A stretch of DNA of 64,000 nt. Source: the human T2T-CHM13v2.0 reference genome, Homo sapiens. The translations under genes and the position numbers were made by a program. The notes beneath the pieces were generated by a model. It was not told the DNA's origin. It ran no database searches and was given only the letters and a program-made list of their open reading frames with translations. The DNA lies in assembly GCF_009914755.1 (NCBI RefSeq), contig NC_060926.1; one strand, 5' to 3'. Position 1 is the first letter of the stretch. Each line of letters begins with the position of its first letter. Positions 11,502 to 27,400 of this stretch are shown in pieces.

Positions 11502-14500
11502 TTTTTTTTTAATTTAATTTAATTTTATTTTATTATTATTATACTTTAAGTTTTAGGGTACATGTGCACAATGTGCAGGTTAGTTACATATGTCTACATG
11601 TGCCATGCTGGTGTGCTGCACCCATTAACTCGTCATTTAGCATTAGGTATATCTCCTAATGCTATCCCTCCCCCCCTCCCCCCACCCCACAACAGTCCCA
11701 AGAGTGTGATGTTCCCCTTCCTGTGTCCATGTGTTCTCATTGTTCAATGCCCACCTATGAGTGAGAATATGCCGTGTTTGGTTTTTTGTTCTTGCGATAG
11801 TTTACTGAGAATGATGATTTCCAATTTCATCCATGTCCCTACAAAGGACATGAACTCATCATTTTTTATGGCTGCATAGTATTCCATGGTGTATATGTGC
11901 CACATTTTCTTAATCCAGTCTATCATTGTTGGACATTTGGGTTGGTTCCAAGTCTTTGCTATTGTGAATAATGCCGCAATAAACATACGTGTGCATGTGT
12001 CTTTATAGCAGCATGATTTCTAGTCCTTTGGGTATATACCCAGTAATGGGATGGCTGGGTCAAATGGTATTTCTAGTTCTAGATCCCTGAGGAATCGCCA
12101 CACTGACTTCCACAATGGTTGAACTAGTTTACAGTCCCACCAACAGTGTAAAAGTGTTCCTATTTCTCCACATCCTCTCCAGCACCTGTTGTTTCCTGAC
12201 TTTTTAATGATTGCCATTCTAACTGGTGTGAGATGGTATCTCATTGTGGTTTTGATTTGCATTTCTCTGATAGCCAGCGATGGTGAGCATTCTTTCATGT
12301 GTTTTTTGGCTGCATAAATGTCTTCTTTTGAGAAGTGTCTGTTCATGTCCTTCACCCACTTTTTGATGGGGTGGTTTTTTTCTTGTAAATTTGTTTGAGT
12401 TCATTGTAGATTCTGGATATTAGCCCTTTGTCAGATGAGTAGGTTAGGAAAATTTTCTCCCATTTTGTAGGTAGCCTGTTCACTCTGATGGTACTTTCTT
12501 TTGCTGTGGGCAGAAGCTCTTTAGTTTAATTAGATCCCATTTGTCAATTTTGGCTTTTGTTGCCATTGCTTTTGGTGTTTTAGACATGAAGTCCTTGCCC
12601 ATGCCTATGTCCTGAATGGTAATGCCTAGGTTTTCTTCTAGGGTTTTTATGGTTTTAGGTCTAAAGTTTAAGTCTTTAATCCATCTTGAATTAATTTTTG
12701 TATAAGGTGTAAGGAAGGGATCCAGTTTCAGCTTTCTACATATGGCTAGCCAGTTTTCCCAGCACCATTTATTAAATAGGGAATCCTTTCCCCATTGCTT
12801 GTTTTTCTCAGGTTTGTCAAAGATCAGATAGTTGTAGATATGTGGCGTTATTTCTGAGGGCTCTGTTCTGTTCCATTCATCTATATCTCTGTTTTGGTAA
12901 CAGTACCATGCTGTTTTGGTTACTGTAGCCTTGTGGTATAGTTTGAAGTCAGGTAGCATGATGCCTCCAGCTTTGCTCTTTTGGCTTAGGATTGACTTGG
13001 TGATGTGGGCTCTTTTTTGATGCCATATGAACTTTAAAGTAGTTTTTTCCAATTCTGTGAAGAAAGTCATTGGTAGCTTGATGGGGATGGCATCGAATCT
13101 ATAAATTACCTTGGGCAGTATGGCCATTTTCATGATATTGATTCTTCCTACCCATGAGCATGGAATGTTCTTCCATTTGTTTGTATCTCTTTTATTTCAT
13201 TGAGCAGTGGTTTGTAGTTCTTCTTGAAGAGGTCCTTCATGTCCCTTGTAAGTTGGATTCCTAGGTATTTTATTCCCTTTGAAGCAATTGTGAATGGGAG
13301 TTCACTCATGATTTGGCTCTCTGTTTGTCTGTTATTGGTGTATAAGGATGCTTGTGATTTTTGCACATTGATTTTGTATCCTGAGACTTTGCTGAAGTTG
13401 CCTATCAGCTTAAGGAGATTTTGGGCTGAGACGATGGGGTTTTCTAGATATACAATTATGTCATCTGCAAACGGATAATTTGACTTCCTCTTTTCCTAAT
13501 TGAATACCCTTTATTTCCCTCTCCTGCCTGATTGCCCTGGCCAGAACTTCCAACACTATGTTGAATAGGAGTGGTGAGAGAGGGCATCCCTGTCTTGTGC
13601 CAGTTTTCAAAGGGAATGCTTCCAGTTTTTGCCCATTCAATATGATATTGGCTGTGGGTTTGTCATAGATAGCTCTTCTTATTTTGAGATACGTCCCATC
13701 AATACCTAATTTATTGAGAGTTTTTAGCATGAAGGGTTGTTGAATTTTGTCAAAGGTCTTTTCTGCATCTATTGAGATAATCATGTGGTTTTTGTCTTTG
13801 GTTCTGTTTATATGCTGGATTACATTTATTAATTTGTGTATATTGAACCAGCCTTGCATCCCAGGGATGAAGCCCACTTGATCATGGTGGATAAGCTTTT
13901 TGATGTGCTGCTGGATTCAGTTTGCCAGTATTTTATTGAGGATTTTTGCATCAATGTTCATCAAGGATATTGGTCTAAAATTCTCTTTTTTGGTTGTGTC
14001 TCTGCCCAGCTTTGGTATCAGGATGATGCTGGCCTCATAAAATGAGTTAGGGAGGATTCCCTCTTTTTCTATTGATTGGAATAGTTTCAGAAGGAATGGT
14101 ACCAGTTCCTCCTTGTACCTCTGTTAGAATTCGGCTGTGAATCCATCTGGTCCTGGACTCTTTTTGGTTGGTAAGCTATTGATTATTGCCACAATTTCCA
14201 TTCAAAGCAGTGTGTAGAGGGAAATTTATAGCACTAAATGCCCACAAGAAAAAGCAGGAAAGATCGAAAATTGACACCCTAACATCACAATTAAAAGAAC
14301 TAGAAAAGCAAGATCAAACACATTCAAAAGCTAGCAGAGGGCAAGAAATAACGAAAATCAAAGCAGAACTGAGGGAAATAGAGACACAAAAAACCCTTCA
14401 AAAAATTAACGAATCCAGGAGCTGGTTTTTGGAAAGGATCAACAAAATTGATAGACCACTAGCAAGACTAATAAAGAAGAAAAGAGAGAAGAATCAAATA

Positions 14501-14682
14501 GACGCAATAAAAAATGATAAAGGGGATATCACCACCGATCCCACAGAAATACAAACTACCATCAGAGAATACTACAAACACCTCTACGCAAATAAACTAG
14601 AAAATCTAGAAGAAATGGATAAATTCCTCGACACATACACCCTCCCAAGACTAAACCAGGAAGAAGTTGAATCTCTGAATAG
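11502..14682 (-). mobile_element. L1PA2/PA3-like element, 5'-truncated with 5' inversion (minus 11502-14198; inverted plus-strand piece 14199-14682)
   Basis: Poly-T tail, 3' UTR and ORF2 fragments on minus; ORF2 piece [15 protein letters not shown]...EEVESLNR on plus; perfect 15-bp TSD aacataagcactttc at 11487-11501 and 14683-14697. Confidence 0.97.
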
Positions 14683-24439: not shown

Positions 24440-27400
24440 TCAATGCCCACCTATGAGTGAGAATATGCCGTGTTTGGTTTTTTGTTCTTGCGATAGTTTA
24501 CTGAGAATGATCATTGCCAATTTCATCCATGTCCCTACAAAGGACATGAACTCATCATTTTTTATGGCTGCATAGTATTCCATGGTGTATATGTGCCACA
24601 TTTTCTTAATCCAGTCTATCATTGTTGGACATTTGGGTTGGTTCCAAGTCTTTGCTATTGTGAATAGTGCCGCAATAAACATACGTGTGCATGTGTCTTT
24701 ATAGCAGCATGATTTCTAGTCCTTTGGGTATATACCCAGTAATGGGATGGCTGGGTCAAATGGTATTTCTAGTTCTAGATCCCTGAGGAATCGCCACACT
24801 GACTTCCACAATGGTTGAACTAGTTTACAGTCCCATCAACAGTGTAAAAGTGTTCCTATTTCTCCACATCCTCTCCAGCATCTGTTGTTTCCTGACTTTT
24901 TAATGATTGCCATTCTAACTGGTGTGAGATGGTATCTCATTGTGGTTTTGATTTGCATTTCTCTGATGGCCAGTGATGGTGAGCATTTTTTCATGTGTTT
25001 TTTGGCTGCATAAATGTCTTCTTTTGAGAAGTGTCTGTTTGTATCCTTCGCCCACTTTTTGATGGGGTTGTTTGTTTTTTTTCTTGTAAATTTGTTTGAG
25101 TTCATTGTAGATTCTGGATATTAGCCCTTTGTCAGATGAGTAGGTTGTGAAAATTTTCTCCAATTTTGTAGGTTGCCTGTTCACTCTGATGGTACTTTCT
25201 TTTGCTGTGCAGAAGCTCTTTAGTTTAATTAGATCCCATTTGTCAATTTTGGCTTTTGTTGCCATTGCTTTTGGTGTTTTAGACATGAAGTCCTTGCCCA
25301 TGCGTATGTCCTGAATGGTAATGCCTAGGTTTTCTTCTAGGGTTTTTATGGTTTTAGGTCTAATGTTTAAGTCTTTAATCCATCTTGAATTAATTTTTGT
25401 ATAAGTTGTAAGGAAGGGATCCAGTTTCAGCTTTCTACATATGGCTAGCCAGTTTTCCCAGCACCATTTATTAAATAGGGAATCCTTTCCCCATTGCTTG
25501 TTTTTCTCAGGTTTGTCAAAGATCAGATAGTTGTAGATATGTGGCGTTATTTCTGAGGGCTCTGTTCTGTTCCATTCATCTATATCTCTGTTTTGGTAAC
25601 AGTACCATGCTGTTTTGGTTACTGTAGCCTTGTAGTATAGTTTGAAGTCAGGTAGCATGATGCCTCCAGCTTTGCTCTTTTGGCTTAGGATTGACTTGGT
25701 GATGTGGGCTCTTTTTTGGTTCCATATGAACTTTAAAGTAGTTTTCTCCAATTTGGTGAAGAAAGTCATTGGTAGCTTGATGGGGATGGCATTGAATCTA
25801 TAAATTACCTTGGGCAGTATGGCCATTTTCACAATATTGATTCTTCCTACCCATGAGCATGGAATGTTCTTCCATTTGTTTGTATCCTCTTTTATTTCAT
25901 TGAGCAGTGGTTTGTAGTTCTCCTTGAAGAGGTCCTTCACGTCCCTTGTAAGTTGGATTCCTAGGTGTTTTATTCTCTTTGAAGCAATTGTGAATGGGAG
26001 TTCACTCATGCTTTGGCTCTCTGTTTGTCTGTTATTGGTGTATAAGGATGCTTGTGATTTTTGCACATTGATTTTGTATCCTGAGACTTTGCTGAAGTTG
26101 CCTATCAGCTTAAGGAGATTTTGGGCTGAGACGATGGGGTTTTCTAGATATATAATCATGTCATCTACAAACAGGGATAATTTGACTTCCTCTTTTCCTA
26201 ATTGAATACCCTTTATTTCCTTCTCCTGCCTGATTGCCCTGGCCAGAACTTCCAACACTATGTTGAATAGGAGTGGTGAGAGAGGGCATCCCTGTCTTGT
26301 GCCAGTTTTCAAAGGGAATGCTTCTAGTTGTTGCCCATTCAGTATGATATTGGCTGTGGGTCTGTCATAGATAGCTCTTCTTATTTTGAGATGCGTCCCA
26401 TCAATACCTAATTTATTGAGAGTTTTTAGCATGAAGGGTTGTTGAATTTTGTCAAAGGTCTTTTCTGCATCTATTGAGATAATCATGTGGTTTTTGTCTT
26501 TGGCTCTGTTTATATGCTGGATTACATTTATTGATTTGCATATATTGAACCAGCCTTGCATCCCAGGGATGAAGCCCACTTGATCATGGTGGGTAAGCTT
26601 TTTGATGTGCTGCTGGATTCGGTTTGCCAGTATTTTATTGAGGATTTTTGCATCAATGTTCATCAAGGATATTGGTCTAAAATTCTCTTTTTTGGTTGTG
26701 TCTCTGCCCGGCTTTGGTATCAGGATGATGCTGGCCTCATAAAATGAGTTAGGGAGGATTCCCTCTTTTTCTATTGATTGGAATAGTTTCAGAAGGAATG
26801 GTACCAGTTCCTACTTGTACCTCTGTTAGAATTCGGCTGTGAATCCATCTGGTCCTGGACTCTTTTTGGTTGGTAAGCTATTGATTATTGCCACAATTTC
26901 AGAGCCTGTTATTTGTCTATTCAGAGAGTCAACTTCTTCCTGGTTTAGTCTTGGGAGGGTGTATGTGTCGAGGAATATATCCATTTCTTCTAGATTTTCT
27001 AGTTTATTTGAGTAGAGGTGTTTGTAGTATTCTCTGATGGTAGTTTGTATTTCTGTGGGATAGGTGGTGATATCCCCTTTATCATTTTTTATTGCATCTA
27101 TTTGATTCTTCTCTCTTTTCTTCTTTATTAGTCTTGCTAGCAGTCTATCAATTTTGTTGATCCTTTCAAAAAAACAGCTCCTGGATTCGTTAATTTTTTG
27201 AAGGGTTTTTTGTGTCTCTATTTCCTTCAGTTCTGCTCTGATTTTAGTTATTTCATGCCTTCTGCTAGCTTTTGAATGTGTTTGCTCTTGCTTTTCTAGT
27301 TCTTTTAATTGTGATGTTAGGGTGTCAATTTTGGATCTTTCCTGCTTTCTCTTGTGGGCATTTAGTGCTATAAATTTCCCTCTACACACTGCTTTGAATG

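What the first reader, a model, noticed from the sequence alone, without database searches (positions are those of the whole stretch)
11502..26900. Two independent neighbouring L1 insertions share private mutations, including two identical ORF2 nonsense codons: signature of ectopic L1-L1 gene conversion
Seen: copy A (11502-14198) and copy B (24205-26900) have different TSDs, so they are separate insertions, not a segmental duplication. Both carry a stop at the same Tyr codon in ...IYPKD* (12020-12022 and 24716-24718) and in ...FTAEF* (14124-14126 and 26826-26828). Both also read [55 protein letters not shown] and LIGGH. Knowledge (consensus from memory): active L1PA2/3 ORF2 reads IDQWNR, AWYWYQ, SQKNK, QAFLY, LISNF, KIIRA, AEKAF, KHRIF and LIGGN, and most of these changes are not CpG decay. 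A source element with two ORF2 stops cannot define an autonomous subfamily. In A's inverted segment (14199-14682) versus the matching part of B there is no shared amino-acid change, only about 8-9 private changes each. Hand counts: about 15 shared variants, about 2.3% A-B divergence in the co-oriented part, and about 3.3% in the inverted part. Inference: the co-oriented 2.7 kb was homogenised some time after insertion (gene conversion, or a duplication-then-deletion unequal crossover) and then diverged again.
Basis: partly seen in the sequence, partly recalled or inferred. Interest (0 to 1): 0.82.

Follow-up and report, generated by a model that had tools for sequence, protein, structure and literature searches.

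The report
Neighbouring dead L1 copies exchanged sequence
Two separately inserted, long-dead L1 retrotransposon copies 12.7 kb apart share a private set of mutations that is best explained by DNA copying between neighbouring repeats, and one of their two shared stop codons is carried by at least 20 L1 copies in the surrounding 3 Mb.

Summary
A (11502-14682, 5'-inverted by twin priming) and B (24205-30384, full length) are separate insertions with different target-site duplications. Both have the same two ORF2 stops, at Tyr1184 and Tyr481 of the solved L1 ORF2 protein. They share 11 further nucleotide variants that 0-3 of 33-50 other sampled copies carry.

Three corrections:
- Each stop alone occurs elsewhere: 54 of 5971 and 35 of 4390 copies. 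Only A and B carry both.
- Stop 1 says little about an A-B exchange. 20 of its 54 carriers lie in chr2:12.5-15.5 Mb, on at least three L1PA 3'UTR haplotypes, with unrelated flanks and 6% mutual divergence.
- Two of the shared variant pairs each recur in one unlinked copy (chr18, chr15).

A-B divergence is 0.48 of that of random L1 pairs in the co-oriented 2.7 kb, and 0.93 in the inverted 480 nt (p about 0.016-0.055). One rare variant is still shared in the inverted part.

Ectopic gene conversion is the best reading (about 0.6). It rests mainly on the 12.7 kb proximity, on the need for a non-autonomous source otherwise, and on other neighbouring L1 pairs that also share variants. A local daughter of B is not excluded. 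The kind of event is known. The region-wide stop allele is unexplained and is the more surprising result.

The parts
11502..14198 (-). Copy A, co-oriented part: L1 3' 2.7 kb with its poly-A tail (a T-run on the + strand from 11502)
   Evidence: 97.37% identical to B 24203-26900
14199..14682 (+). Copy A, inverted 5' piece (twin priming). It corresponds to B 27400-26921; about 8 L1 bases are missing at the junction
11487..11501 (.). Left target-site duplication of A, AACATAAGCACTTTC (right copy at 14683-14697)
   Evidence: read directly
24205..30384 (-). Copy B, full-length L1PA. Its ORF2 is broken by the two stops and by frameshifts
24194..24204 (.). Left target-site duplication of B, TCAGAGTTCTT (right copy at 30385-30395)
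   Evidence: read directly
24716..24718 (-). Stop 1 in B (in A: 12020-12022), at ORF2 residue 1184. The same base change removes a TATAAA on the L1 strand. This allele is region-wide on chr2:12.5-15.5 Mb
26826..26828 (-). Stop 2 in B (in A: 14124-14126), at ORF2 residue 481. 35 of 4390 copies genome-wide carry it
24445..26459 (.). Span of the 11 rare variants shared by A and B (B coordinates): 24445G, 24469C, 25195C, 25577C, 25599A, 25675C, 26047G, 26102C, 26178T, 26380C, 26459T
27189..27189 (.). The only rare variant shared in the inverted segment (G; in A within 14199-14682)
24765..24773 (.). ATTTCTAGT, an exact copy of the 9-mer that the stop-1 allele creates at 24712-24720, 53 nt away. A perfect palindrome GGGTATATACCC lies at 24726-24737 between them
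   Evidence: read directly

Best explanation
After A and B had inserted separately, most or all of their 2.7 kb of direct-orientation homology was made alike by non-allelic (ectopic) gene conversion. This was either one long gap-repair tract or several tracts; the direction cannot be told. The variants of the donor were copied to the other copy, including stop 2. Both copies then diverged again by about 1% each. A's inverted 480 nt lay outside that homology block and kept its own history.

Stop 1 belongs to a second, wider layer. It is one base change carried by at least 20 independent L1PA copies in chr2:12.5-15.5 Mb, so A and B probably hold it for that regional reason.

Shown: separate insertion; the shared private variants; uniqueness of the two-stop combination; the regional distribution of stop 1.

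Inferred: that the sharing arose by conversion rather than by copying through RNA, and that the regional allele spread by short-tract conversion.
For: 1. Different TSDs, both with plausible endonuclease sites, and A has the twin-priming structure.
2. There are 11 shared rare variants in 2670 co-oriented sites, each in 0-3 of 33-50 other copies, against 27 A-private and 26 B-private.
3. The 24445G+24469C 41-mer has exactly 2 hits in the assembly, A and B.
4. No position is common to the list of 54 stop-1 carriers and the list of 35 stop-2 carriers except A and B.
5. At least 9 of the 11 shared variants change the protein, and 2 more changes are nonsense. The changes therefore built up in a dead copy, not in an active lineage.
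6. A-B divergence relative to random pairs is 0.48 in the co-oriented part and 0.93 in the inverted part. The inverted part holds 17 of 77 differences where 12.7% is expected, binomial p = 0.016.
7. Other neighbouring independent insertions share rare variants. L035/L044 (chr10, 9 kb apart, different truncation points) share 7. L051/L052 (chr3, 99 kb apart) share 9-12, are alike in the middle but not at the ends, and give a heterogeneity p of 0.003.
8. Rare L1 variants cluster locally in general. The share of carriers with another carrier within 1 Mb is 36 of 54, 14 of 35, 25 of 84 and 41 of 80. For the G/T alleles at the stop-1 site it is 8 of 61. These are hand counts.
9. From established knowledge (recalled): L1 proteins act mainly on the RNA that encoded them, and insertion sites are not known to favour the neighbourhood of the source.
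Against: - The contrast between inverted and co-oriented parts is weak. It gives p = 0.055 when only 25331-26900 is used as the co-oriented comparison.
- One rare variant, 27189G, is shared in the inverted part. About 2.3 would be expected if that part were equally related, so 1 fits both models. Its 84 copies genome-wide make chance sharing roughly a few percent.
- A and B also share the minority alleles 26958G and 27120C there.
- No clear tract boundaries lie inside the 2.7 kb. The chi-square p of 0.021 should be discounted, because 5.9% of pseudo-sister pairs reach p < 0.02 in this region. Shared and different sites alternate as expected by chance: 10 runs of shared sites against about 10.7 expected (hand count).
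- The tract would have to cover at least 2.4 kb, which is long for gene conversion.
- B is full length and so could have been transcribed.
- No outgroup genome was available.
Confidence: 0.6

Rival explanations
1. Parent and daughter. B decayed in place, picking up stop 2 and the other shared variants. It was then transcribed, and its RNA was reverse-transcribed by proteins from another L1 (in trans). The copy inserted only 12.7 kb away and became A by twin priming.
For: - B is full length with its 5' end.
- A has every hallmark of a real retrotransposition: TSD, tail and twin-priming inversion.
- Shared variants are spread over the whole co-oriented length without a clear mosaic.
- One rare variant and two minority alleles are also shared in the inverted piece.
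- L035/L044 show uniform relatedness along their length (ratio 0.45, p = 0.19).
Against: - The inverted piece is as diverged as a random pair: 17 differences against about 9 expected, p = 0.016-0.055.
- It needs both rare trans-mobilisation of an element with a stop at residue 481 and an insertion within 13 kb of the source. No mechanism for that is established (recalled).
- No 3' transduced flank of B is seen in A.
- It cannot explain single-site sharing across different subfamilies in the same region.
Confidence: 0.17
2. Siblings. A and B are independent copies of one rare defective source lineage located elsewhere, and they lie close together by chance.
For: - 25577C+25599A is also in a chr18 copy of the same sub-type.
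- 26047G+26102C is also in a chr15 copy.
- So some shared variants may predate insertion.
Against: - Those two copies carry none of the other shared variants and are 4-7% diverged from A and B.
- No other copy carries both stops.
- Two of at most three or four members falling within 13 kb of 3.1 Gb is about a 1 in 100,000 coincidence (inference).
Confidence: 0.02
3. Segmental duplication or an assembly artefact. One L1 was duplicated as DNA, or the assembler or polisher copied bases between repeats.
For: Nothing positive. The artefact part cannot be tested here, because no reads and no second human assembly are held.
Against: - The TSDs, flanks, tails and 5' structures all differ.
- A and B still differ at about 60 sites.
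- The flanks of the regional carriers share only Alu-like matches.
Confidence: 0.04

Closest known systems
Non-allelic gene conversion between neighbouring Alu elements (Aleshin and Zhi 2010), as summarised in Fawcett and Innan 2019, PMC6598467. I read passages of the latter only; the original paper was not seen.
   Same: Independent retroelement insertions become more alike when they lie close together. The review says rates are elevated between copies within 10 kb. A and B are 12.7 kb apart stop to stop, with 9.5 kb between their ends.
   Different: Here the elements are L1. The homogenised stretch is at least 2.4 kb rather than part of a 300-nt Alu. Sharing is also seen at 99 kb (L051/L052) and, for single sites, over 0.5-3 Mb.
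Spread of a mutated binding motif among ISX transposon copies on the Drosophila miranda neo-X by gene conversion (Ellison and Bachtrog 2015), as described in PMC6598467 (passages read).
   Same: One small sequence change is found in many dispersed copies of one transposon family within one chromosomal territory. It is not explained by descent from one source copy.
   Different: In that case selection for dosage compensation drives the spread. Here the copies are dead L1 fragments in a gene desert, the change is a nonsense codon that also removes a TATAAA, and no selective reason is known. That the spread occurred by conversion is my inference, not shown.
Gene conversion reported in young human L1 (Ta) elements and repair of a break in a mouse L1 from other L1 copies (Myers et al. 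2002; Vincent et al. 2003; Tremblay et al. 2000).
   Same: Sequence is exchanged between L1 copies after insertion.
   Different: Those reports concern a few subfamily-diagnostic positions or experimental breaks. They do not describe a neighbouring pair with a private set of decay mutations.
Twin priming (Ostertag and Kazazian 2001, recalled).
   Same: A has the textbook structure. The 3' part is in one orientation and the adjacent 5' part is inverted, with a small loss at the junction, one TSD pair and a poly-A tail.
   Different: Nothing differs. It matters here only because it ends the direct-orientation homology with B at 14198.

Membership tests
Ectopic (non-allelic) gene conversion between dispersed repeats | The two copies are independent insertions, not products of a DNA duplication | tested here: met
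   Different TSDs, flanks, tails and 5' structures
Ectopic (non-allelic) gene conversion between dispersed repeats | Derived variants are shared by the pair and absent from other family members | tested here: met
   11 variants in 0-3 of 33-50 sampled copies. 24445G+24469C occurs only in A and B genome-wide. Two other variant pairs each have one extra carrier
Ectopic (non-allelic) gene conversion between dispersed repeats | Mosaic structure: a related tract beside stretches with ordinary divergence | tested here: inconclusive
   The ratio to random pairs is 0.93 in the inverted part against 0.48 in the co-oriented part, p = 0.016-0.055. Heterogeneity within the tract gives p = 0.021 on an anti-conservative test. 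The hand runs test is not significant
Ectopic (non-allelic) gene conversion between dispersed repeats | The pre-conversion state is visible at the orthologous locus of an outgroup species | not testable with these tools
   No other primate genome is held
Mobile non-autonomous L1 sublineage (trans-mobilised) | Several dispersed copies carry the same set of inactivating and other variants | tested here: not met
   No copy other than A and B is on both stop lists. The chr18 and chr15 copies carry only 2 of the shared variants each
Mobile non-autonomous L1 sublineage (trans-mobilised) | Carriers of a diagnostic variant form one clade | tested here: not met
   Stop-1 carriers fall on at least 3 3'UTR haplotypes, as the controls do. 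Their mean pairwise distance is 4.3-6.0% against 5.3% in controls
Twin-priming L1 insertion (copy A) | An inverted 5' segment contiguous in L1 coordinates with the 3' segment, with one TSD pair and a poly-A tail | tested here: met
   A 14199-14682 matches B 27400-26921 and A 11502-14198 matches B 24203-26900. The TSD was read
Segmental duplication | Homology continues into the flanks, and the insertion site and TSD are the same | tested here: not met
   for the regional carriers

The most novel reading that the evidence does not exclude
Single base changes spread among independent, dead L1 copies across 0.5-3 Mb chromosomal neighbourhoods.

In chr2:12.5-15.5 Mb, at least 20 L1PA copies of at least three subfamilies, in both orientations and with unrelated flanks, carry the same A-to-C change. 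It makes a stop at ORF2 residue 1184 and destroys a TATAAA. In two classes of long exact words around the site, none of the 984 and 395 ordinary-allele copies lies in that region. I found one ordinary-allele copy there, a younger-looking element.

A second T-to-G change, 122 nt away, forms its own clusters in other places.

This would mean that short-tract exchange between dispersed repeats, possibly with a directional drive, acts over megabase distances. Alternatively, an unknown site-specific and region-limited mutation process exists.
Probability: 0.35. Interest if true: 0.8.

Novelty: new member of a known kind. Interest (0 to 1): 0.55.

Why it matters
The A/B pair is a clean natural example of sequence exchange between neighbouring L1 copies. 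It carries a practical warning: L1 ages, subfamily calls and parent-daughter inferences made from shared mutations can be wrong for elements that have close neighbours.

The regional stop-1 allele matters more if it is real. Thousands of L1 copies act as replicate reporters of what happens to a fixed sequence in different parts of the genome. A base change that is nearly fixed in one 3 Mb neighbourhood and at about 0.6% elsewhere has two candidate explanations, long-range non-allelic conversion or region-limited, site-specific mutation. A simple per-megabase census of alleles would make these testable.

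Tried and rejected
Stop 1 as a retrotransposing sublineage: rejected.
- Carriers lie on several 3'UTR haplotypes in the same proportions as controls.
- They are not closer to each other than random copies are.

Regional carriers as segmental duplicates: rejected.
- Flanks share only Alu-like matches, and truncation points differ.

A region-intrinsic T-to-G mutation process: weak.
- A>C makes up 36 of 223 rare changes in the chr2 copies, against 13 of 149 in controls.
- The clusters of the two T-to-G variants coincide only on chr2.

Conversion from clean donors wiping nearby private mutations: no sign.
- 10 of 54 carriers match the exact 150-mer, against 984 of 5856 non-carriers.
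- Rare-variant density near the site is similar in carriers and controls.

Other region-wide alleles among the chr2 copies.
- None was found in 24200-26300 with 9 copies.
- With 20 copies only 24594G stood out, 4 of 19 against 0 of 41. A group-specific allele of similar size also occurs in the other carriers.

The old L1 in the window as an outgroup: too diverged (about 76%) to polarise sites. Its homologous base at the stop-1 site is the ordinary one.

Census attempts that failed.
- Two searches returned too many hits for the list to reach chr2: 2081 and 1506.
- Naming a locus as handle did not restrict the search to its contig.

Resource limits.
Smaller fetches were used instead.

Literature.
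- Three searches listed no genome-wide study of non-allelic conversion among human L1 copies.
- The listings show only the top 12-15 of 77 to 2,696 papers, so this is not proof of absence.

Full report
WHAT IS THERE

Copy A is an antisense L1. It runs from its tail (a T-run from 11502) to 14198 and is joined to an inverted L1 piece at 14199-14682. AACATAAGCACTTTC flanks it at 11487-11501 and 14683-14697. Against B, the two parts map to 24203-26900 and to 27400-26909 in reverse. This is the twin-priming structure, with about 8 L1 bases lost at the junction.

Copy B is a full-length antisense L1 at about 24205-30384, flanked by TCAGAGTTCTT at 24194-24204 and 30385-30395. The two are therefore separate retrotransposition events. 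Their matching stop codons are 12,696 bases apart.

THE STOPS AND THE AMINO-ACID STRINGS

- Both copies read YPKD* and end KHGIFSLIGGH*.
- Matched to solved human L1 ORF2 protein chains, stop 1 stands at residue 1184 and stop 2 at residue 481 in 8uw3 numbering.
- B has further frame breaks.

ARE THE SHARED VARIANTS PRIVATE?

The whole assembly could be searched exhaustively by pattern.

- Stop 1. The 32-mer around it occurs 5971 times with any base at the site. Of these, 54 carry the stop base and 61 carry G or T (59 G and 2 T by my reading of the list).
- Stop 2. Its 32-mer occurs 4390 times with any base, and 35 carry the stop base.
- No place other than A and B appears on both stop lists.

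To polarise the other sites I projected three sets of copies onto B coordinates:
- 28 other stop-1 carriers;
- 28 other stop-2 carriers;
- 12 controls, taken at about every tenth place, plus two extra, from the first 100 ordinary copies on contig 1.

In 2670 co-oriented sites, A and B share 11 alleles that 0-3 of 33-50 other copies carry. There are 27 A-private and 26 B-private sites. There are also 18 shared alleles that are merely the less common state of subfamily-level polymorphisms.

Genome-wide counts for variant pairs:
- The 41-mer holding 24445G and 24469C exists only in A and B.
- The 41-mer with 25577C and 25599A has one more hit, on contig 18.
- The 71-mer with 26047G and 26102C has one more hit, on contig 15.

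Those two copies carry none of the other shared variants and are 4-7% diverged from A and B. A few of the shared variants may therefore have come with the source of one copy. The set as a whole is unique to the pair.

Nearly all of the shared variants change the protein, as expected for decay in a dead copy.

CONVERSION OR COPYING THROUGH RNA?

I compared A-B differences per 300-nt window with the mean for random pairs of the other copies.
- The ratio is 0.48 over the co-oriented part. By window it is 0.43, 0.11, 1.01, 0.73, 0.24, 0.82, 0.44, 0.37, 0.19.
- It is 0.93 in the inverted 480 nt.
- The inverted part holds 17 of 77 differences where 12.7% is expected, binomial p = 0.016.
- Using only 25331-26900 for comparison, it is 17 against 35 where 22.3% is expected, p = 0.055.

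Evidence that pulls the other way:
- One rare variant is shared in the inverted part, 27189G. It was in 1 of 27 sampled copies and has 84 exact hits genome-wide. About 2.3 shared rare variants would be expected if that part were as related as the rest.
- Heterogeneity among the co-oriented windows gives chi-square p = 0.021. The same test on pseudo-sister pairs is anti-conservative in this region: 5.9% of 153 pairs reach p < 0.02.
- The order of shared and different sites along the element is what chance gives. There are 10 runs of shared sites against about 10.7 expected (hand count).

The sequence of the pair alone therefore favours 'the inverted piece was not homogenised' only mildly.

The stronger arguments are indirect:
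- A daughter or sibling origin needs a source with a stop at residue 481 to be mobilised by foreign proteins and to land within 13 kb.
- No other copy of such a lineage exists in the assembly.
- Exchange between close repeats is a known process. PMC6598467 (passages read) cites elevated rates for Alu copies within 10 kb.

OTHER NEIGHBOURING PAIRS

Among the 28 other stop-2 carriers plus A and B, the pairs sharing most rare alleles are physical neighbours:
- A/B share 10.
- L051/L052 on contig 3, 99 kb apart, share 9.
- L035/L044 on contig 10, 9 kb apart, share 7.

In both extra pairs one member is truncated where the other runs on, so they are separate insertions. L051/L052 are alike in the middle and more diverged than random pairs at both ends, p = 0.003. 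L035/L044 are uniformly related, p = 0.19.

THE REGIONAL STOP-1 ALLELE

Distribution.
- 20 of the 54 carriers lie in contig 2 between 12.52 and 15.48 Mb, and 17 of them lie within 13.50-14.78 Mb.
- Smaller groups lie on contigs 3, 7, 8, 10 and 18.

Nature of the 20 copies.
- All 20 were fetched. Excluding A and B, they fall on three 3'UTR haplotype groups, about 9, 3 and 5 copies by my assignment. One of the 18 is too truncated to type. A and B are intermediate.
- They have different truncation points and unrelated flanks.
- They lie in both orientations.
- A first sample of nine of these copies (A, B and seven others) differ from each other by 6.0% on average. Controls differ by 5.3%.
- They are therefore not a lineage and not duplicates.

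Ordinary-allele copies are missing from the region.
- An exact 150-mer with the ordinary base, taken from control L064, has 984 hits, none between 2.27 and 16.63 Mb of contig 2.
- The same 150-mer with the stop base has 10 hits, 4 of them at 14.24-14.69 Mb. Fisher p = 5e-9, or 5e-7 if A and B count once.
- A second class, a 141-mer from control L067, has 395 ordinary-allele hits, none in the first 21.9 Mb of contig 2. Four regional carriers belong to that class.
- I found one copy in the region with the ordinary base, at 13.7487 Mb. Its context differs slightly, and I recall that form from younger L1.

Other alleles at the same site.
- The G and T alleles are scattered. 8 of 61 have a neighbour within 1 Mb, against 36 of 54 for the stop allele (hand counts).

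A second clustered variant.
- The change 24594 T-to-G is in 4 of 19 regional copies and 0 of 41 others.
- It has 80 hits genome-wide, and 41 of them have a neighbour within 1 Mb.
- Five lie at 13.67-14.24 Mb of contig 2. Other groups lie on contigs 5, 19, 11, 13, 20 and 23. Some of these are near centromeres, where duplication could be the cause.
- Apart from contig 2, its clusters do not coincide with those of stop 1.

What this suggests.
- That pattern, together with no other region-wide allele and only a modest excess of A-to-C changes, speaks against a mutation bias intrinsic to the region. It fits local spread from a chance origin, which short-tract conversion could give.
- Both variants lie in the best conserved part of the L1 3' region: random-pair divergence there is 3.1%, the lowest of the ten windows compared.
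- The near-fixation of stop 1, however, needs a directional push that I cannot identify.

Observations offered without a test:
- The stop allele creates ATTTCTAGT, identical to a 9-mer 53 nt away.
- A perfect 12-nt palindrome lies between the two 9-mers.
- The change removes a TATAAA on the L1 strand.

I could not check reads or other assemblies. An artefact is unlikely for loci with unique flanks, but it is not excluded.

VERDICT

- One of its two headline stops is explained by something else.
- Exchange between neighbouring L1 copies is a known kind of event.
- The region-wide allele is the part that deserves follow-up.

Noticed in passing
own genome, contig 2: 12.52-15.48 Mb (window places 12020 and 24716 are two of the sites): 20 independent L1PA copies of at least 3 subfamilies carry the same stop-making base. 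In two classes of long exact words around the site (a 150-mer and a 141-mer), no ordinary-allele copy lies in this stretch.
   Followed up: yes
L027, L029, L078, L082, L094 (contig 2, 13.67-14.24 Mb); B coordinate 24594: A second T-to-G variant is shared by 5 neighbouring L1 copies on different backgrounds. It has 80 carriers genome-wide, and 41 of them have another carrier within 1 Mb.
   Followed up: partly
L094 (contig 2: 13748560-13748960): This is the only copy in the region that I found with the ordinary base at the stop-1 site. Its neighbouring bases differ (TAATCC), a form I recall from younger L1. It nevertheless carries 24594G.
   Followed up: partly
L035/L044 (contig 10, 43.316 and 43.326 Mb); L051/L052 (contig 3, 69.51 and 69.61 Mb): Two more pairs of neighbouring, separately truncated L1 copies share 7 and 9-12 rare variants. 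The second pair is related only in its middle part.
   Followed up: partly
window 24712-24773: The stop-1 allele makes a 9-mer identical to one 53 nt away. A perfect palindrome GGGTATATACCC lies between them. The change also removes a TATAAA on the L1 strand.
   Followed up: no
window 5766-9122 and 40825-41104: Older L1 fragments lie here. The first is 70-76% identical to B and in the opposite orientation; the second is 83% identical over 280 nt. The older copy has the ordinary base at the stop-1 position.
   Followed up: partly
window 31181-31341: An 82-nt stretch occurs twice in tandem at 97.6% identity, about 0.8 kb beyond the 5' end of B.
   Followed up: no
own genome, contig 5: about 64.3995-64.3997 Mb: One L1 copy appears on two lists. 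It carries both 24594G and the G allele at the stop-1 site, and it sits in a group of four 24594G carriers within 0.6 Mb.
   Followed up: no
L073 (contig 18: 68468300-68472000) and L093 (contig 15: 91513900-91517300): Each of these rearranged L1 fragments carries one adjacent pair of the A/B variants and none of the others. No single tree fits this without recurrent change or exchange.
   Followed up: partly
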